Of a stretch of 43,696 bases of DNA, positions 25,852 to 31,144 are shown piece after piece. The position numbers and the translations under genes were made by a program. The notes under the pieces are model-generated. The model was not told where the DNA came from. It did no database searches and saw nothing but the letters and a program-made list of their open reading frames with translations. Position 1 is the first letter of the stretch. Each line of letters starts with the position of its first letter. This stretch comes from a virus. The stretch lies in IMG/VR virus record IMGVR_UViG_3300045988_146126; one strand, written 5' to 3'.

Positions 25852-26058
25852 ATGATGAAGGCTTTCAAAATCCAAGACGCGGTTAAACTTTATTCGTCGC
25901 TTAAAAAAACTTACGAACGTGAAGACTCTAAAATTCAGAAAATGCAAGAAGAGATTGATCGTGAAATGAAGAAAGCTTCTCTGACCACCAAACCAAGTGC
26001 GGAACACCAAGGACCTAAACGACATTTAAAAATACATAGAGATAGGCCGAATTCTTAA
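25852..26058 (+). CDS. Possible small charged protein (68 aa)
   Basis: ATG 25852 follows AAAGGTGGTGG. It is Lys/Glu-rich. It overlaps the 3' end of the convergent gene by 33 nt, so support is weak. Confidence 0.3.
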   Translation: MMKAFKIQDAVKLYSSLKKTYEREDSKIQKMQEEIDREMKKASLTTKPSAEHQGPKRHLKIHRDRPNS

Positions 26059-27027
26059 AGAATCCTCTTTTTGTGAAATGCCAAAGTTAGTCAATGCGAT
26101 TGATGACAAGTAACTTGCAATCGCACCAATATCACGGGGTGCCAATTGAGAATTTGTAAGAGTTTGGTGTTTCCAATTTGTATTATCTGATTTGTTTTCC
26201 ACGATTCCCATTATATAAAGGGTTCGTGGATTTTTTTGTAGCATTTGAAGTTGTGATGGGCTTAATCTAAAAAAAGACTTTTGTGCAAAAACAACGGTTT
26301 GCTCAGTGGAAACAATGACACTATTCGGCATACTTTTTGAAAAGAAGTTCACCATTGCATAAACACTTCTAAAATTCTCTTGCGAGCTTTTGTCCTCTGT
26401 TATCTTTTGTTCTGCTTTTTGGATTTTCTTCTTCATGTCATCTATTTGCATTTTCGCGTTGCTGGCATTCCTTGTCCTTGCTTGGATAACTCTCAGCTGT
26501 TTGTTGTAACCATCTAACTTTTCTTCTGAAACATTATCTGTAGACAATCTCAGCACTGGATCAATAATTTCAGGGTTGGTACCGGCTTCAAGAGAATCGA
26601 AGTCGTATAAGGAAAAGCTATCTTTGTAAAGTACCAAGTCTCCTGGTTCCGCATTCTCAACAGGAACAAATTGTTTTTTTAGATAGCCTTCAAGGATCTC
26701 GACCCCGTAATCACCGTATACTATATTCTCTGAATACTGATGCCTATTATGTGTTGAACTTTCGTCTGCCATAGAGTGGCTATCTTCGGCCGATCCTGAA
26801 CTATTTGCTATCCCTGGGACTCCGCCGCTAATTTTTGCGGATTTTCTTCCACCTTTAGTTGCGACCTGAGTCAGTATGGAGGTTTTCTCATTCATACGCG
26901 TAGTCAGGGTGCTCAAGCCTTCGTCAAACTGGGCTAATAAGGAATTCATTAAGTCGGTGTCAACATAGATATACTCTCTCAGTTTCTTTTCGGCTTCAGC
27001 CTCATCATGCAGATTATGGTCTTCCAT
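26026..27027 (-). CDS. Unknown protein (333 aa), last gene of the int-proximal leftward operon
   Basis: SD GAAGGAG lies 6 nt before ATG 27027; the track start at 27042 is a TTG inside the SD. I recognise no domain. The N-terminus is EYIYVDTDLMNSLLAQFDEGL, followed by a Gly/Ser-rich linker. Confidence 0.7.
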   Translation of the reverse strand: MEDHNLHDEAEAEKKLREYIYVDTDLMNSLLAQFDEGLSTLTTRMNEKTSILTQVATKGGRKSAKISGGVPGIANSSGSAEDSHSMADESSTHNRHQYSENIVYGDYGVEILEGYLKKQFVPVENAEPGDLVLYKDSFSLYDFDSLEAGTNPEIIDPVLRLSTDNVSEEKLDGYNKQLRVIQARTRNASNAKMQIDDMKKKIQKAEQKITEDKSSQENFRSVYAMVNFFSKSMPNSVIVSTEQTVVFAQKSFFRLSPSQLQMLQKNPRTLYIMGIVENKSDNTNWKHQTLTNSQLAPRDIGAIASYLSSIALTNFGISQKEDSLRIRPISMYF

Positions 27028-27137
27028 TTTATTCTCCTTCAAATAGTTTAATTTTTAGTTTTGCTTCATCGCCCACGCAGCCTTCCGCGGAAGGCTATTT
27101 CTTTGTCTGAAAACTAGCCCCCCTTTATGAAGTCGTA

Positions 27138-27341
27138 TTATTGCATCTTTCTAACCATCATCATGAGCACGCCGATAATGATGAAAACGGCTGCCAACCA
27201 GAGGCTGCTGCCGGGTTTGTCTGGGTCAATGAGCCAATATACCCAACGGTGTTTGTGGCCAAATAAGGCTAAGTAGACGCCTATAAGAACAATGATGAGG
27301 CCAATGAAGTGTGCCTCACTTAATGTAACTGGACCATTCAT
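27138..27341 (-). CDS. Small two-TM membrane protein (67 aa)
   Basis: SD GGAGA lies 7 nt upstream. It has two hydrophobic helices, FIGLIIVLIGVYLALF and LWLAAVFIIIGVLMMMV. Confidence 0.6.
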   Translation of the reverse strand: MNGPVTLSEAHFIGLIIVLIGVYLALFGHKHRWVYWLIDPDKPGSSLWLAAVFIIIGVLMMMVRKMQ

Positions 27342-27364
27342 AAGTGCATCTCCAAGAACTGAGC

Positions 27365-27790
27365 TTAGATTTCGTTTAGCTTGCTGAACTCGATGTCATT
27401 GTTGTATCTGATCTTGACGGTTAGTGGGTTGCAACGGATGATGACGGGTCGATCATACTGTAACGATTTTTGAAAAGAATTGAGGCTTTCCGTAAAGCTT
27501 GGTATGGCCTCTTCAGCGGTCAATACAACGGCCTTTGCACGCAATAGCAACGATGAGTGGTGTAGCTCATTGAAGCAGTAAACAGCCACCACAGGCTTCT
27601 CTAGGACGTTTTGAATGGTAGTAGTGTCGCGATCAGTGTAAAAAAGGATTTCTTTCAGCGATCGGTGTGATTTAAGTGGTGTTAGCGAAACTATATTAGG
27701 AAAACCGGTATCGGTATCAAGCGTAGCTACCTGCATAACGGTACACTCTCTTAACAGTATATCGGCCTGCCTGATCGTAGAATTTGCCAT
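27365..27790 (-). CDS. Pyridoxamine-5'-phosphate-oxidase-like (FMN-binding split-barrel) protein, tentative
   Basis: SD TAGGAG lies 8 nt before ATG 27790; the track ORF extends upstream without support. The pattern CTVMQVATLDTDTGFPNIVSL....ILFYTDRDTTTIQNVLEKPVVAVY resembles the PNPOx/general-stress-26 fold. Confidence 0.45.
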   Translation of the reverse strand: MANSTIRQADILLRECTVMQVATLDTDTGFPNIVSLTPLKSHRSLKEILFYTDRDTTTIQNVLEKPVVAVYCFNELHHSSLLLRAKAVVLTAEEAIPSFTESLNSFQKSLQYDRPVIIRCNPLTVKIRYNNDIEFSKLNEI

Positions 27791-27870
27791 AAGTAATACT
27801 CCTATCTTAACTATTAATTTGATACGAGTAGCTATGTTTTTAACCGTTGATGGTGAATCAAATTCATTTT

Positions 27871-27879
27871 TGCTATAAT
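27871..27879 (+). promoter_or_regulatory. Extended -10 promoter (TGcTATAAT)
   Basis: TGCTATAAT is read directly. It is divergent from the leftward operon and lies 45 nt upstream of ATG 27924. Confidence 0.5.
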
Positions 27880-27923
27880 TAGATGAATATTGTTCATTAG
27901 CGACTAGAAGGGCAGTGACTAAA

Positions 27924-28091
27924 ATGGAAAATCGTGTTGAGATAAAAGAAGGACATGTTTTTGTAAATGGAACCGAAATTAACCTGGTCAATGATATACA
28001 GCTTCATCCTGCGCTGAACGACACAACGCAAGTTCAACTGAGTTTTAAAGCTACGAGCCTGGATGTAGTTTATCCCGGATCTCGGCGGTGA
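27924..28091 (+). CDS. Possible small protein (55 aa; not in the ORF track)
   Basis: An ATG ORF downstream of the extended -10 promoter. The SD is weak (GAAGGG, 11-nt spacer). Confidence 0.35.
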   Translation: MENRVEIKEGHVFVNGTEINLVNDIQLHPALNDTTQVQLSFKATSLDVVYPGSRR

Positions 28092-28124
28092 TGACGTTCT
28101 GAATGATTAGTACGAAATTCTTTA

Positions 28125-28133
28125 TGATATAAT
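28125..28133 (+). promoter_or_regulatory. Second extended -10 promoter (TGaTATAAT)
   Basis: TGATATAAT is read directly, 37 nt upstream of ATG 28170. Confidence 0.5.
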
Positions 28134-28169
28134 CAGTGAAAGATAACTAGACATTCACATAGAGGAGCG

Positions 28170-28394
28170 ATGATGATGAATGAAGACAAGCTAGGTTATA
28201 GTTATTCATATGATTTGAAAGATGGAATTGTCAAGGTGAAGGATTTTGTGAAATATTTAGAGTCTTTACCCAGTGATTCCACAATCAGAATTCAGGGTAT
28301 TTCAGATGATCGTCCGGCTGTTATTGATGACAATGTCTATTTTGAAAAAAGTAGTGGGCAATTGGTTATCCAACCTGATTCATTATCTATATGA
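28170..28394 (+). CDS. Hypothetical small protein (74 aa)
   Basis: SD AGAGGAG lies before ATGATGATG. Its stop (28392-28394) abuts the stop of the convergent gene (28395-28397). Confidence 0.55.
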   Translation: MMMNEDKLGYSYSYDLKDGIVKVKDFVKYLESLPSDSTIRIQGISDDRPAVIDDNVYFEKSSGQLVIQPDSLSI

Positions 28395-29150
28395 TCACCA
28401 AAAAACTCTGTGGTGGATATCCATGATTATTTTGAAGCTTCGATTGAATTCTACGTCTAGTTCTTTATCCTTATGTACCACTTGTATAGCTGACAGAGTG
28501 TAAAGTTTTCCTACAAGAACTGCGAGCTCATGCTCTTTTTTGTTGCTAATAATTGCCTCATAGTTATCCGTGGCAATCGCATCCTGATAATTTGAGATGG
28601 GACAGTACCCATCGTCGTCAATCCAGCTAATTTGGAAAAACTTGACGACTTGGTAAACATTCTTAATTACTTCTTCGCAAAGACCCTTTGTTGGGATTAA
28701 AGTCCCGTGAATAACTCTGTTGCGTTTTTCTGTGGAATCGTACATTTTGTTCAACATAGGAATTGCTGATTCTCCAAATAGTAGTAGGGAAATCGTTGCA
28801 AACGAAGCAATAGATCTTTCTGAATACTTGATAGCGTGTGATTTATCAATGATTTTGTCCATTGGTTTGTGGTTGTTTGTTGACCAAAAGTAAGCTTTGA
28901 TAGCTGTGTTTCTGAATTTTTCCAAGCTCGTAACTGCGCTTAGATAGCACTCATAGTATTCTTCATCATCATACGCTCGTAAAGCATTTTCAAATATCGG
29001 AACATACAGAGGGGTGCGTAATACTGCATGAAATGTATGACCCCTAGGACATATAAATTTCAGTGATTCGTCATCAGTTACTTCCGCGACAGCACTAGAT
29101 TTATAATCGCGGCATTCGGCACACATTGTTTCAATTTTCGTGTCAGACAT
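28395..29150 (-). CDS. Zn-ribbon plus HEPN-like protein (251 aa), candidate abortive-infection/RNase effector
   Basis: It has an N-terminal CAEC...(20 aa)...CPRGH and a central EKRNRVIHG that matches the HEPN Rx4H motif (RNxxxH). AAGGAG abuts ATG 29150 with no spacer, so the start is uncertain; the alternative ATG is at 29126. Confidence 0.55.
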   Translation of the reverse strand: MSDTKIETMCAECRDYKSSAVAEVTDDESLKFICPRGHTFHAVLRTPLYVPIFENALRAYDDEEYYECYLSAVTSLEKFRNTAIKAYFWSTNNHKPMDKIIDKSHAIKYSERSIASFATISLLLFGESAIPMLNKMYDSTEKRNRVIHGTLIPTKGLCEEVIKNVYQVVKFFQISWIDDDGYCPISNYQDAIATDNYEAIISNKKEHELAVLVGKLYTLSAIQVVHKDKELDVEFNRSFKIIMDIHHRVFW

Positions 29151-29192
29151 CTCCTTACATTGTACTGACCGTGTTTACTTGGTTTGCTTATT

Positions 29193-29217
29193 AGCCCTCG
29201 CCACCGGGGCTATTTTT
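29193..29217 (+). terminator. Plus-strand intrinsic terminator just beyond the 5' end of the HEPN-like gene
   Basis: AGCCC ... GGGCT stem followed by ATTTTTG. Confidence 0.5.
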
Positions 29218-29226
29218 GTGCCCAGC

Positions 29227-29245
29227 AAAAGCCCCAAGTAGGGGC
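29227..29245 (-). terminator. Minus-strand terminator of the membrane-protein gene
   Basis: On the minus strand: GCCCC tactt GGGGC followed by TTTT. Confidence 0.5.
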
Positions 29246-29256
29246 CTGTAAAAGGG

Positions 29257-29958
29257 CTATTTCATATTGGACTGGGTTTTCCCGCTTAAAGCATCATTTG
29301 TAAAGGTCACGTTGAAGTTGGAACCCAGATCACCTTTTACACCAGATGTATAACCGGCCACAACATTCTTTTGACCGCCGATAAGGCTTTCATTGTAGTA
29401 GTCGGGTTGTCCCCATTTTGAGGTGAAGTCAGCGTATTTTGTACCGTCCTGGAACGCGTTGAAATCTGCCAAAGTAATCTTTTGCTTGCGGCCTAACTTG
29501 AAGCCAGTAAGATTCTTGCTGAACGCATTTCCGTCGGTAAAGGAAACAATTACGTTAGCTCCCCAGCCACCCTCAACATTAGTCCACGTTACAAGATCAG
29601 TCTTAACTCCATTTGTGGTACTGCTCGAAGTAGAGGACGGGTTCCCAAACTGAGCTTTTAAATCATCTAATTTGGCACCACCATTGCCGTTTTGCATCAA
29701 ATCACCCAATTTGATGCTGTCAAAGTCTGCGCGAGTAATCTTACCGCTTTCCTTTTTTGATGTACTTGCGGACGTTTTATCCGTCTTGCTAACTGCGGTT
29801 TTTCCCGTGGATTCGCTGCTTGATTTGCCCTTATTGTTGAGGCCACCGCCAATTGCTGCTACAACAACAATAACTAATATCCAAAACCAAACACGTTTGT
29901 AAAAAGGCTTCTTCACCTTGTATTGCTTGCCGTCAGCATCCATTACCTTTTTTGCCAT
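29257..29958 (-). CDS. Membrane-anchored extracellular two-repeat protein (candidate superinfection-exclusion protein)
   Basis: SD GGAGG lies 8 nt before ATG 29958. It has an N-terminal TM (VWFWILVIVVVAAIGGG) and a Ser/Thr/Lys linker. Two related modules begin ITRADFDSIKLG and ITLADFNAFQDG. It lies between the repressor and int. Confidence 0.6.
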   Translation of the reverse strand: MAKKVMDADGKQYKVKKPFYKRVWFWILVIVVVAAIGGGLNNKGKSSSESTGKTAVSKTDKTSASTSKKESGKITRADFDSIKLGDLMQNGNGGAKLDDLKAQFGNPSSTSSSTTNGVKTDLVTWTNVEGGWGANVIVSFTDGNAFSKNLTGFKLGRKQKITLADFNAFQDGTKYADFTSKWGQPDYYNESLIGGQKNVVAGYTSGVKGDLGSNFNVTFTNDALSGKTQSNMK

Positions 29959-30017
29959 TTTGTTTTCCTCCATAAATAATTTTCAGCTTTTAACGTCTTC
30001 CGTATCTGGACTAACAA

Positions 30018-30449
30018 TTAATTAATGTAAAATTCCTTTATTGCTTCTAAAGCAGTGTCTTCCATTGGCGTAGGAATGTCAAAAGCTTCCATAAATTGAT
30101 TTAGATTAGCATCTTCTTTATCAATATCAGCAAAGTATAAGGGAACGAGAATCTGAATTCCTCCTATGTTAGCTTCACCCTCAATGCTGTTCTTTGACGC
30201 CGAATAAAAGTATAAGCAAGCTGGGTCTTGATGTAGAACGTGCATTATTTCGTGCGCAGCCTGATAAGGCAATTGTTTCGGCTTATGCCAGTTCATGTTA
30301 ATCGCAATCCAACGTGTTTCAGGATTAGAAACTGACGGAGTGTACGGCTTCAGCTGATATGTCAGCTCAGCCCCAACTCCACGGTCAAATCCGTAGTTTA
30401 AAACCTCTCTCAGCATGTCACTAGTAAAATCAGTCATCATGTTTGCCAC
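30018..30449 (-). CDS. ImmA/IrrE-type Zn-metalloprotease (anti-repressor protease)
   Basis: The motif is AAHEIMHVLH (HExxH). It overlaps the 3' end of the repressor gene by 20 nt, the same arrangement as ImmR-ImmA pairs. Confidence 0.75.
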   Translation of the reverse strand: MANMMTDFTSDMLREVLNYGFDRGVGAELTYQLKPYTPSVSNPETRWIAINMNWHKPKQLPYQAAHEIMHVLHQDPACLYFYSASKNSIEGEANIGGIQILVPLYFADIDKEDANLNQFMEAFDIPTPMEDTALEAIKEFYIN

Positions 30450-30768
30450 CTCGAAGAAGTCTCTTGATTATCTCAAGATCTTCAGGCGGAATGGGGCGAC
30501 CTTCAAAAGTCATGATGGTGTCATTTTTTGAATCTGATATGTCAATTTGCTCCGGCTTTGAGCGAACATCAGTAACCCCAAGCAAAAAGTCGGTAGAAAC
30601 ATTAAAGTAACTGGCTAGTTTCTTAATAGAATCTTGGTCAGGAGTTCTTTCGTTCTTTTCATATAAAGAAACAGACGCTTTGCTGACATTTATAATTTTT
30701 CCGACATCAGATTGGGTCATCTTCTTTTCGTTCCTAAGTTCTTTTAGTCTTTCTCCGAAGCTCATCAT
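30430..30768 (-). CDS. CI-like XRE-family repressor (112 aa, no S24 autocleavage domain)
   Basis: The HTH is FGERLKELRNEKKMTQSDVGKIINVSKASVSLYEKNERTP. It is divergent from the cro-like gene across a 133-bp operator region. Confidence 0.85.
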   Translation of the reverse strand: MMSFGERLKELRNEKKMTQSDVGKIINVSKASVSLYEKNERTPDQDSIKKLASYFNVSTDFLLGVTDVRSKPEQIDISDSKNDTIMTFEGRPIPPEDLEIIKRLLRGGKHDD

Positions 30769-30795
30769 ATCACCTCATAGGAATAGAATAGTGTA

Positions 30796-30870
30796 TACAA
30801 ATTGTAAACTCAACAAAGTTTAAAAAAAGTTGACTTTTCCGTTGACAGTTTACTAATTGTAGATTATAGT
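30796..30870. promoter_or_regulatory. Genetic switch 1: operators and the rightward promoter
   Basis: The rightward promoter is TTGACA (30842-30847), 17 nt, TATAGT (30865-30870). Palindromic operators are TACAAATTGTA (30796-30806) and TACTAATTGTA (30851-30861), and the GTTTAC motif recurs. Confidence 0.65.
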
Positions 30871-30901
30871 GTTTACATAAAGTTGATTAGGAGGTGATCA
30901 T

Positions 30902-31144
30902 TTGAATGAAAAGCTGAAAGAACGCCGCAAGGAATTTCATCTTACAATGCAAGACATTTCAGATATGATTGGCATCAGTAAAGGATATTATTCATTGATA
31001 GAACGTGGAGAACGCCGCGTTAGCTATGAATTGGCATTCAAAATTGCTACGGCCTTAAAAACGAAGCCTGATCTTATTTTTTTGGAATATCAGTCAACTT
31101 TAAGTAAACACATTCCCGCCCAGCGAGAGGAGGCAGTCAAATGA
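30902..31144 (+). CDS. Cro-like XRE HTH protein (80 aa, TTG start)
   Basis: SD AGGAGGTGA precedes TTG 30902. The HTH is LKERRKEFHLTMQDISDMIGISKGYYSLIERGERR. Confidence 0.75.
   Translation: MNEKLKERRKEFHLTMQDISDMIGISKGYYSLIERGERRVSYELAFKIATALKTKPDLIFLEYQSTLSKHIPAQREEAVK

What the first reader, a model, noticed from the sequence alone, without database searches (positions are those of the whole stretch)
28395..29150. Zn-ribbon/HEPN-like protein in the lysogeny block, candidate RNase-type abortive-infection effector
The 251-aa leftward ORF has an N-terminal CxxC...CxxxH knuckle and the motif EKRNRVIHG. That motif fits the HEPN catalytic signature Rx4-6H in its most common RNxxxH form. It sits as a separate unit between terminators in the int-cI moron zone. 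HEPN RNases are recurrent effectors of Abi, TA and CRISPR-associated systems. No cognate antitoxin-like ORF is co-transcribed with it, which makes its control interesting (see the convergent-promoter finding).
Basis: partly seen in the sequence, partly recalled or inferred. Interest (0 to 1): 0.65.

Follow-up and report, generated by a model that had tools for sequence, protein, structure and literature searches.

The report
Prophage zinc-ribbon HEPN RNase with antisense partner
A Lacticaseibacillus prophage carries a gene for a probable RNA-cutting "suicide" defence protein from an undescribed but widespread family, paired tail-to-tail with a small conserved gene that may switch it off, which resembles two recently described anti-phage systems without belonging to either.

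Summary
The window is Lacticaseibacillus phage R24.2. ORF 28395-29150 (-) encodes 251 aa with CxxC...CxxxH and RNRVIH.

In 145 divergent relatives (18-40% identity, one at 89%), R143 and H148 are invariant, and N144 and the Cys3His ligands nearly so. An AlphaFold model (pLDDT 91.9) gives a four-strand zinc ribbon plus a helical domain. RNxxxH sits at the end of helix 3, the canonical HEPN position.

No curated model claims the protein. Weak hits from its relatives fall on HEPN families (RiboL-PSP-HEPN, Csx1/Csm6, Cas13a), and the best Foldseek hits are HEPN structures. It is not RAZR/PD-T7-4 and not Tha.

A small convergent gene (28170-28394, +) abuts the HEPN stop codon. Homologous small genes overlap the 3' end of HEPN relatives in seven further prophage lineages (one only weakly detectable). 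Five of the prophages have 92-98% identical integrases. Two HEPN-less phages carry orphan copies. The layout matches staphylococcal Tha/Ith.

Most likely this is a prophage abortive-infection RNase, possibly silenced by the partner. Function is untested. It is a new variant of a known kind, of moderate interest.

The parts
28395..29150 (-). Gene for the 251-aa zinc-ribbon + HEPN-like protein (PHROG 19381, 'unknown function')
   Evidence: The family has 195 representative clusters at E<=1e-3.
29019..29138 (-). N-terminal four-strand zinc ribbon (residues 5-44) with Cys3His ligands C10, C13, C34, H38
   Evidence: The ligands are invariant or nearly so. The model has strands at 5-9, 19-23, 29-33 and 39-44. 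A few relatives give weak Zn_ribbon Pfam hits.
28626..29006 (-). HEPN-like helical core (residues 49-175): H1 49-61, H2 65-91 (E77), insert 92-109, H3 110-147, H4 155-175
   Evidence: Model pLDDT is 91.9. These are the lowest-entropy segments of the family.
28707..28724 (-). R143-N-R-V-I-H148, the predicted catalytic Rx4H motif at the end of helix 3
   Evidence: R and H are 145/145 and N is 143/145. Position comes from the model. hhalign aligns it with RNSIMH of Tha-1, but not significantly.
28398..28625 (-). Variable C-terminal tail (residues 176-251)
   Evidence: It has the highest entropy in the family and many indels. Among ~90%-identical alleles, nonsynonymous:synonymous differences are 11:1 to 23:5 here, against about 1:1 (15:16 down to 3:1) in codons 1-190.
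28170..28394 (+). Convergent small partner gene (74 aa, or 73 from 28173) with a good RBS (AGAGGAG). Its stop codon abuts the HEPN stop codon.
   Evidence: It is homologous to the convergent small ORFs next to HEPN relatives. Its family has 26 clusters, almost all Lacticaseibacillus.
29192..29212 (+). GC-rich hairpin followed by TTTTTGTG on the + strand. It is a terminator-like element for transcription running antisense through the HEPN gene, and a module-junction element conserved in this prophage group.
   Evidence: It is not specific to the HEPN cassette. In L003 the exact copy lies before the PNPOx gene and a variant copy lies before the HEPN gene.
29139..29156 (-). Translation start region: AAGGAG directly abuts ATG (29150). 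Codon 4 is ACG, where 107 of 145 relatives and the 90% alleles have their start ATG.
29257..30768 (-). Upstream genes in the same orientation: cI-like repressor (30430-30768), M78-type metalloprotease (30018-30449) and a DUF3862/BLIP-like, Sie-like protein (29257-29973). The HEPN gene is the fourth gene of this leftward block.

Best explanation
The gene encodes a single-chain immune effector of the temperate phage. It has an N-terminal Cys3His zinc ribbon, a HEPN ribonuclease core whose active site is R143/N144/H148 (probably helped by E77), and a fast-evolving C-terminal tail.

It sits downstream of the cI-like repressor on the lysogeny strand, so it is presumably made in the lysogen. I infer that it stays latent there. 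When another phage infects, a phage protein is probably sensed through the zinc ribbon and/or the variable tail. Two HEPN domains then form a composite site and cut RNA, which stops translation and aborts the infection.

The small convergent gene encodes a protein that I propose switches the RNase off. It would act when the prophage itself is induced, or when a related phage infects, as Ith does for Tha in Staphylococcus aureus prophages. [quoted passage not shown]

Shown: the anatomy, the conservation, the fold-level layout, the prophage context and the conserved gene pair. Inferred: RNase activity, latency, the trigger, and the partner's inhibitory role.
For: HEPN core:
- The RNxxxH motif is invariant in 145 divergent relatives, and E77 is conserved.
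- The model has pLDDT 91.9. [quoted passage not shown] These are the placements that define HEPN in PMC3710099.
- Sub-threshold hits of family members fall on HEPN models: PF18735 in 11/145 at E<=0.01 and 31/145 at E<=1; Csx1/Csm6 in 15/145 and Cas13a in 3/145.
- The highest-probability Foldseek hits are HEPN proteins: 2q00 (prob 0.98, TM 0.63), AbiV 9bj7, 2hsb, 1o3u and Csm6'.

Phage context: every context examined is a phage or prophage. These are Lacticaseibacillus lysogeny modules; Klebsiella, Acinetobacter and Vibrio prophages; and SPbeta-like phages. The neighbouring slots hold known defence domains such as SNIPE, TerB_N, SLATT+ThsB-TIR and PD-T7-4.

Partner:
- A homologous small ORF is convergent with the HEPN gene, abutting it or overlapping it by 4-36 nt, in the window and seven further lineages. 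HEPN identities among them are 21-40%.
- Flanking genes differ between lineages. The integrases of five of these prophages are 92-98% identical, while their partners are only 20-36% identical apart from one close pair at 74%.
- Orphan partner copies, 63% identical to one cognate type, occur in phages R29.1 and R3.1. Neither has a HEPN gene.

Precedents: Tha/Ith has the same layout and a proven inhibitor. RAZR and HepS are latent solo HEPN effectors triggered by phage structural proteins.
Against: - No statistically significant match to any HEPN model or structure was obtained for the window protein itself. Pfam, NCBIfam, PADLOC and PDB sequence searches were empty. All Foldseek E-values are above 0.4. 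The family consensus scores 17 bits on PF18735 against a cut-off of 28.4.
- The 3D proximity of R143, H148 and E77, and dimer formation, could not be inspected.
- No sequence homology to Tha-1, Ith-1 or a RAZR-like protein was found.
- The partner is absent from the Gram-negative and SPbeta loci, so it is not essential to the family.
- HEPN and partner identities do not co-vary.
- In this allele the family's start codon is ACG and the remaining ATG abuts the Shine-Dalgarno sequence, so expression may be low.
- There are no expression or phenotype data.
Confidence: 0.5

Rival explanations
1. Solo abortive-infection HEPN effector. The convergent small gene is an unrelated passenger, either an independent moron or a recombination-directionality factor, that is merely linked by position.
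For: Relatives in Klebsiella, Acinetobacter, Vibrio and SPbeta-like phages have no partner. The partner occurs alone in R29.1, R3.1 and an L. paracasei prophage, next to the attachment-site end. In several loci the partner sits in the classical xis position beside int. HEPN and partner identities do not co-vary. HepS and RAZR work without partners.
Against: The pair keeps the same tail-to-tail contact in eight lineages counting the window, while both proteins have diverged to about 20-40% identity and the flanks differ. Prophages with 92-98% identical integrases carry partners only 20-36% identical, which argues against an integrase-specific excisionase. In the window, L012 and L032 the pair is separated from int by other genes. 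The partner has no HTH or excisionase hit.
Confidence: 0.22
2. Toxin-antitoxin addiction module. The HEPN protein is a constitutively active toxin, and the small protein (or its antisense RNA) is the antitoxin that stabilises the prophage rather than defending against phages.
For: HEPN toxins are common in TA systems such as HEPN-MNT and RnlA-RnlB. A small adjacent conserved partner exists. Overlapping convergent transcription could supply antisense control.
Against: Partner-less relatives are common, which is unexpected for a constitutively toxic protein. The convergent orientation is atypical for type II TA. There is no MNT or other known antitoxin domain. The partner is conserved as a protein, not only as RNA. 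The closest functional precedents (Tha, RAZR, HepS) are non-toxic until triggered.
Confidence: 0.13
3. A phage-benefit RNase rather than host defence. It might degrade host or competitor RNA, or nucleotide second messengers, during the phage's own cycle, which would make it counter-defence or host takeover.
For: The family also occurs in SPbeta-like phage genomes and near late genes in a Vibrio prophage. Weak similarity to Csm6/Csx1-type HEPN domains.
Against: In the window and in all Firmicute relatives examined the gene is on the lysogeny strand downstream of the repressor, opposite to the lytic genes. It shares its slot with known defence genes. It has no CARF or ring-nuclease domain.
Confidence: 0.07
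4. Non-catalytic nucleic-acid-binding or regulatory zinc-ribbon protein with a HEPN-like helical bundle.
For: There is no significant match to a catalytic HEPN family for the protein itself. Helical bundles are easily confused with one another.
Against: Absolute invariance of R, N and H in the catalytic arrangement, plus a conserved acidic residue, across about 20% identity is the signature of active HEPN RNases.
Confidence: 0.05

Closest known systems
Tha/Ith of Staphylococcus aureus prophages (80alpha tha-1/ith-1; Rostol et al. 2024, PMC11087260)
   Same: Both have a HEPN protein with an RNxxxH motif encoded on the lysogeny strand downstream of cI. Both have a small (about 60-85 aa) gene on the opposite strand whose 3' end overlaps the HEPN gene, often beside int. 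Both show several allelic types in otherwise similar prophages. In both, the small gene is also carried by phages that would otherwise be targets (compared).
   Different: There is no detectable homology. hhalign aligns only the RNxxxHG segment (probability 1.7%), and the partner does not match Ith-1. Tha has its HEPN at the C-terminus after an unstructured 180-aa N-terminal part and has no zinc ribbon. Here the order is zinc ribbon, HEPN, then a variable tail. Inhibition by the partner is proven for Ith and only inferred here.
RAZR / PD-T7-4 (Zhang et al. 2026, PMC13017515)
   Same: Both are single polypeptides of about 230-250 aa with an N-terminal zinc ribbon followed by a HEPN RNase domain and a short helical tail. 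[quoted passage not shown] In both, the non-catalytic regions are more variable than the HEPN core.
   Different: RAZR has a Cys4 ribbon, a DUF4145-type HEPN and R146...H154 (Rx7H). This family has a Cys3His ribbon, Rx4H, and no DUF4145 or PD-T7-4 HMM hit in 0 of 145 members. A genuine PD-T7-4-like protein in locus L041 scores 2e-12 as a positive control. hhalign between the two finds nothing. The ring-scaffold activation of RAZR is untested here.
HepS of Salmonella prophage Gifsy-1 (Sargen et al. 2026, PMC13043305)
   Same: Both are prophage-encoded, stand-alone Rx4H HEPN proteins in an accessory-gene slot, with no co-directional partner.
   Different: HepS has no zinc ribbon and no antisense partner, and it is a tRNA anticodon nuclease activated by tail-tip proteins. 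Substrate and trigger are unknown here.
RiboL-PSP-HEPN (Pfam PF18735), placed in the Abi2/Swt1 group and described as distantly related to AbiD/AbiF (Anantharaman et al. 2013, PMC3710099)
   Same: It is the nearest curated sequence family. 31 of 145 relatives give weak hits, the best at 2.1e-5. That group is noted to include zinc-ribbon fusions.
   Different: The window protein gives no hit. The family consensus scores 17 bits against a cut-off of 28.4. There is no fusion to endoribonuclease L-PSP and no ParB operon.

Membership tests
HEPN superfamily (as defined in PMC3710099) | Conserved Rx4-6H motif with a polar residue (N/D/H) right after R | tested here: met
   R143 is 145/145, N144 is 143/145 and H148 is 145/145.
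HEPN superfamily (as defined in PMC3710099) | [quoted passage not shown] | tested here: met
   The AlphaFold model (pLDDT 91.9) has H1 49-61, H2 65-91 (E77 is 144/145), insert 92-109, H3 110-147 ending in RNRVIH, and H4 155-175. Only the secondary-structure layout was checked. Coordinates could not be inspected.
HEPN superfamily (as defined in PMC3710099) | Significant profile or structure match to an established HEPN family | tested here: inconclusive
   The window protein has no hit. Relatives give sub-threshold hits that fall on HEPN models: PF18735, HEPN_Apea, Csx1/Csm6 and Cas13a. Foldseek gives HEPN proteins the best probabilities, but all E-values are above 0.4.
HEPN superfamily (as defined in PMC3710099) | Metal-independent RNase activity from a composite dimer site | not testable with these tools
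   No multimer prediction or assay was available.
RAZR / PD-T7-4 | Match to the PD-T7-4 HMM and a DUF4145 (PF13643) HEPN domain | tested here: not met
   0 of 145 members match either model. The positive control L041:1417-2106 scores E=2.2e-12. hhalign gives probability 1%.
RAZR / PD-T7-4 | N-terminal zinc-ribbon domain preceding the HEPN domain | tested here: met
   A four-strand ribbon is present, but with Cys3His ligands instead of Cys4.
RAZR / PD-T7-4 | Activation by assembly around phage ring proteins (portal or Erf-like) | not testable with these tools
   Experimental property.
Tha/Ith | HEPN gene on the lysogeny strand, with a small overlapping gene on the opposite strand | tested here: met
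   In the window the stop codons abut. In relatives the overlap is 4-36 nt.
Tha/Ith | Sequence homology to Tha-1 and Ith-1 | tested here: not met
   The PHROG families also differ.
Tha/Ith | The small protein inhibits its cognate HEPN protein and is not an excisionase | tested here: inconclusive
   Inhibition is untestable here. Against an excisionase role, integrases 92-98% identical go with partners only 20-36% identical, and the partner has no excisionase or HTH hit.
HEPN-MNT type II toxin-antitoxin | Adjacent co-directional minimal nucleotidyltransferase antitoxin | tested here: not met
   No such gene is in the window or in any related locus.
RiboL-PSP-HEPN (PF18735) | Score above Pfam's gathering threshold (28.4 bits) | tested here: not met
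   The window protein has no hit, and the family consensus scores 17 bits.

The most novel reading that the evidence does not exclude
Lactobacillaceae prophages have independently evolved a Tha/Ith-like immunity/auto-immunity switch from unrelated parts: a zinc-ribbon HEPN RNase and a new family of small inhibitor proteins encoded tail-to-tail with it. The cassette exists as an allelic series (22-40% identity) inside nearly identical prophage backbones. Orphan copies of the inhibitor in HEPN-less phages (R29.1, R3.1) are counter-defence genes aimed at one HEPN allele. That would make 'HEPN gene plus antisense small inhibitor' a general, convergently evolved design of temperate phages, and it would define both a new defence family and a new anti-defence family.
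Probability: 0.35. Interest if true: 0.65.

Novelty: new variant of a known kind. Interest (0 to 1): 0.5.

Why it matters
If confirmed, this adds an uncharacterised and widespread family to the single-protein HEPN defences. The family has at least 195 clusters at 50% identity, spans Firmicutes, Proteobacteria and phages, and is named 'hypothetical' or, in two JGI entries, 'polyhydroxyalkanoate synthesis regulator phasin'.

It would also show that the Tha/Ith design, a lysogen-expressed RNase paired with an antisense-encoded off-switch, is not a staphylococcal peculiarity. Instead it would be a recurrent solution to the auto-immunity problem of prophage-borne defences.

There is a practical side. 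L. rhamnosus, L. paracasei and L. casei are industrial and probiotic strains, so prophage-borne Abi genes and the orphan inhibitors that defeat them bear on phage resistance in fermentations.

It is not a conceptual surprise, because each ingredient has a published precedent.

Tried and rejected
- Direct searches with the window protein against Pfam, NCBIfam, PADLOC and PDB sequences found nothing.
- A single-sequence AlphaFold run was useless (pLDDT 35).
- A PDB profile search gave only chance hits.
- BFVD Foldseek gave nothing meaningful.
With the four closest sequences it found no relative in the one-genome-per-species collection.
- The idea that the family is RAZR/PD-T7-4 was rejected.
- The idea that it is Tha was rejected.
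- The convergent ORF next to the SPbetaL4 homologue looked like a partner by position, but it is low-complexity and unrelated.
- I first took the hairpin upstream of the gene for a cassette-specific terminator. An exact-match search showed it is a general module-junction element that also occurs before the PNPOx gene in L003. Its folding energy is not unusual against shuffles (z = -0.87).
- A test for co-variation of HEPN and partner identities gave no signal, because divergence is saturated.
- The RAZR sequence could not be obtained from the paper, which has no held supplements. A PD-T7-4-positive protein from L041 was used as a stand-in.
Full report
**1. What is in the sequence**

The window is 100% identical over the region compared (26000-31000) to Lacticaseibacillus phage R24.2 (OP869850.1, Pleetrevirus, induced from L. 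rhamnosus LMG 23327). Every gene in that record is annotated 'hypothetical protein'.

The ORF at 28395..29150 on the minus strand exists as described. It is 251 aa, with C10xxC13 ... C34xxxH38 and E-K-R143-N-R-V-I-H148-G.

It lies in the leftward lysogeny block. The gene order is:
- cI-like repressor (30430-30768)
- M78-type metalloprotease (30018-30449)
- DUF3862/BLIP-like, Sie-like protein (29257-29973)
- this gene
- a PNPOx-like gene, a 67-aa membrane protein and a DUF6414 protein
- the integrase

A cro-like gene diverges at 30902.

A bare Rx4-6H is not informative, since 24 of 76 long ORFs in this window have one. RNxxxH occurs only in this ORF.

**2. The family**

The word-indexed search found only the protein itself and an 89% relative. 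An exhaustive phmmer run against 1.84 billion representatives found 195 clusters at E<=1e-3. Most are 220-300 aa and match residues about 5-170. A profile search found 241 further clusters. They come from Vibrio, Acinetobacter, Pseudomonas, Serratia, Klebsiella and Nitrosospira, plus a Nitrososphaera MAG. None has a Pfam domain. The names given are 'hypothetical protein' or, in two JGI entries, 'polyhydroxyalkanoate synthesis regulator phasin'.

The only curated family that claims the protein is PHROG 19381, 'unknown function'.

In an alignment of 145 representatives (18-40% identical to the query, one at 89%):
- C34, R143 and H148 are invariant.
- C10, C13, G37, H38, E77, S110, E111, G115, N144 and P153 are at least 90% conserved.

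**3. Fold**

Without an alignment AlphaFold failed (pLDDT 35). With the 145-sequence alignment it gave pLDDT 91.9 and pTM 0.89. The model has:
- four strands (5-9, 19-23, 29-33, 39-44), with the two knuckles forming a zinc ribbon
- helices 49-61, 65-91, a short 98-104, 110-147 and 155-175
- a less confident helical tail

Anantharaman et al. (PMC3710099) define HEPN as a four-helix up-down bundle. It often has an insert between helices 2 and 3. [quoted passage not shown] A polar residue follows R, and a conserved acidic residue lies in helix 2.

The model fits each point. RNRVIH closes helix 110-147. N follows R. E77 is in helix 65-91. Residues 92-109 form the insert. I could check only the secondary-structure layout, not the coordinates.

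Foldseek against the PDB gave no hit with E<=0.001. The matches with the highest probability and target TM-score are HEPN proteins: 2q00 (prob 0.98, TM 0.63), 2hsb (TM 0.66), 1o3u, AbiV 9bj7 and Csm6' 8pe3.

At the sequence level the window protein hits nothing. Its relatives give weak hits that fall on HEPN models:
- PF18735 HEPN_RiboL-PSP in 11/145 at E<=0.01 and 31/145 at E<=1 (best 2.1e-5), and HEPN_Apea in 3 at E<=1
- PADLOC Csx1/Csm6 in 15, Cas13a in 3, and other CARF-HEPN models
- for one relative, the Csm6 match covers residues 116-176, which include the motif

Taken together I regard HEPN superfamily membership as well supported but not formally significant.

**4. What it is not**

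RAZR (PD-T7-4) has a very similar architecture, a zinc finger followed by a DUF4145-type HEPN with R146/H154. It is a latent abortive-infection RNase activated by phage portal or Erf-like rings (PMC13017515).

None of the 145 members matches the PD-T7-4 HMM or DUF4145. A genuine PD-T7-4-like protein that happens to lie in related locus L041 scores 2.2e-12. hhalign between the family and that protein finds nothing.

The ligand set (Cys3His against Cys4) and the motif spacing (Rx4H against Rx7H) also differ. The resemblance to RAZR is therefore architectural, not familial.

**5.

ORF 28170-28394 on the + strand (74 aa, good RBS, annotated in GenBank) ends exactly where the HEPN gene ends. I looked up genomic contexts for divergent relatives:

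| Relative | Identity (phmmer) | Small convergent ORF | Overlap with HEPN 3' end |
|---|---|---|---|
| P0003 | 41% | 61 aa | 4 nt |
| P0004 | 39% | 66 aa | 4 nt |
| P0007 | 31% | 62 aa | 36 nt |
| P0010 | 28% | 85 aa | 11 nt |
| L035 allele | 83% to P0010 | 85 aa | 11 nt |
| P0009 | 35% | 56 aa | 20 nt |
| P0014 | 30% | 53 aa | 20 nt |

These small proteins are homologous to one another. The pairwise E-value for window against L003 is 4e-7. An HMM built from five of them recovers the L039 ORF at 1.7e-7. hhalign gives 67% probability for the L041 ORF.

The flanks differ between lineages. Upstream lie BLIP-like, SNIPE/T5orf172, TerB_N, ThsB-TIR+SLATT or metalloprotease genes. Downstream lie PNPOx or the integrase. 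The two genes therefore move as a unit.

The partner family is small, with 26 clusters that are almost all Lacticaseibacillus, and it matches no Pfam or PHROG family. It is absent next to the Klebsiella, Acinetobacter, Vibrio and SPbeta relatives. The SPbeta 'convergent ORF' is unrelated low-complexity sequence.

It is unlikely to be an excisionase. Five of the prophages have integrases 92-98% identical, while their partners are 20-36% identical and their HEPN proteins 22-40%, apart from the closely related L032/L035 pair.

Orphan partner genes also exist. They are 63% identical to the P0010-type partner and sit after the endolysin gene in phages R29.1 and R3.1 and in an L. paracasei prophage. 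No HEPN relative is detectable anywhere in R29.1 or R3.1.

**6. The closest precedent for the organisation**

In S. aureus prophages, tha encodes a HEPN RNase with RNSIMH. It is activated by tail proteins and is transcribed from the cI promoter. A small overlapping antisense gene, ith, was formerly called xis. Its protein inhibits the cognate Tha upon induction and also protects incoming ith-carrying phages. The pair forms a 'noncontiguous operon' in which convergent transcription makes the two states mutually exclusive (PMC11087260).

The 80alpha map is int, ith (+), tha (-, 64-nt overlap) ... cI. It can be superposed on L003, L013 and L039, and on the window apart from the genes inserted before int.

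[quoted passage not shown] This is therefore the same design built from different parts.

A + strand terminator-like hairpin at 29192-29212 lies just upstream of the HEPN start. It is nearly identical in L012 and L032 and is a variant in L003. It could end partner-strand transcripts after they have crossed the whole HEPN gene. However, the same 25-mer also occurs at another module junction, and its stability is unremarkable. I treat it as a junction and terminator element of this prophage group, not as proof of antisense control.

**7. Where specificity may lie**

Across the family the HEPN helices are the most conserved part (about 2.2 bits of column entropy). The zinc ribbon is more variable (2.8 bits). 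The C-terminal tail is the most variable and is rich in indels (3.4 bits).

Among alleles about 90% identical to the window gene, nonsynonymous:synonymous differences are about 1:1 (15:16 down to 3:1) in codons 1-190. In codons 191-251 they are 11:1, 20:3 and 23:5. The adjacent partner gene differs by only 0-3 nt in the two alleles compared in register.

These are simple counts, not a formal dN/dS. They point to the tail as a rapidly changing surface. That fits a sensor or an inhibitor-binding region.

**8. Mechanism proposed**

The proposed sequence of events is:
- The protein is made in the lysogen and stays latent.
- A protein of an infecting phage activates it.
- The HEPN dimer site (R143/N144/H148, with E77) cleaves RNA, giving abortive infection.
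- The partner protein, helped by convergent transcription, turns it off when the prophage itself goes lytic.
- Orphan partners act as counter-defence.

Shown: the anatomy, the conservation, the context and the gene pairing. Inferred by analogy with Tha/Ith, RAZR and HepS: activity, latency, the trigger and inhibition. Confidence is about 0.5 overall. It is higher (about 0.7) for 'HEPN-type defence RNase' and lower (about 0.35) for the partner's inhibitory role.

**9. Verdict**

It is a new variant of a known kind. It combines an undescribed zinc-ribbon HEPN family with an undescribed small partner family, arranged like Tha/Ith and built like RAZR. Interest is moderate (0.5). A specialist would find it plausible rather than surprising, but it is a clean, testable system in industrially relevant bacteria.

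Noticed in passing
window 25855-26058 (+) and 26026-27042 (-): There is a second tail-to-tail overlapping pair in the same lysogeny block. A 338-aa DUF6414 protein (PF19952, phrog_16607) has its 3' end overlapping by 33 nt a 67-aa + strand ORF (phrog_24244, unknown function) that sits in the 'xis' position beside the integrase. This may be another effector/antisense-partner unit or a real excisionase.
   Followed up: partly
window 29139-29156 (-): In this allele, which is the one shared by R24.2, R26.26, JNU_P10 and six IMG/VR contigs, codon 4 is ACG. The ~90% alleles and 107/145 relatives have their start ATG there, 9 nt after AAGGAG. The only upstream ATG abuts the Shine-Dalgarno sequence, so translation may be weak or may start at Met9.
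   Followed up: partly
L041 1417-2236: The same prophage that carries relative P0014 also encodes a PD-T7-4/RAZR-like zinc-finger + DUF4145 protein (PADLOC E=2e-12). It has its own convergent 45-aa ORF overlapping its 3' end by 8 nt. A small antisense gene may therefore be a recurrent companion of HEPN defences in Firmicute prophages.
   Followed up: partly
window 29188-29212; L003 4955-4979; L012 4964-4988; L032 3946-3970: A 25-nt element, AAAAATAGCCCCGGTGGCGAGGGCT, forms a hairpin with a T-run on the opposite strand. It is exactly conserved at module junctions of these prophages even where the flanking coding sequences are unrelated or only 22-40% identical. It is possibly a recombination boundary or an anti-antisense terminator.
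   Followed up: partly
L012 3609-4952; L032 2452-3972; L013 3579-4657; L035 4199-5542: In related prophages, the slot just upstream of the HEPN cassette holds different defence-type genes (SNIPE/T5orf172, TerB_N, SLATT + ThsB-like TIR). This part of the lysogeny module behaves as a defence hotspot on a backbone with 92-98% identical integrases.
   Followed up: no
window 27924-28091 (+): A 55-58 aa + strand ORF (phrog_8265, unknown function; weak hit to an 'endonuclease' PHROG) precedes the partner gene on the same strand and may form a two-gene rightward unit with it. It is absent from the other cassettes examined.
   Followed up: no
L002 4998-5723 (Bacillus phages SPbetaL4 and SPbetaL6): SPbeta-like phages L4 and L6 carry a 241-aa member of the family (27% identity over residues 5-154). 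It is a lone gene oriented against its neighbours.
   Followed up: partly
window 27138-27790 (-): A PNPOx-like gene (141 aa, PF01243) followed by a 67-aa two-TM protein is a conserved pair in every Lacticaseibacillus prophage locus examined. Its role in a lysogeny module is unexplained.
   Followed up: no
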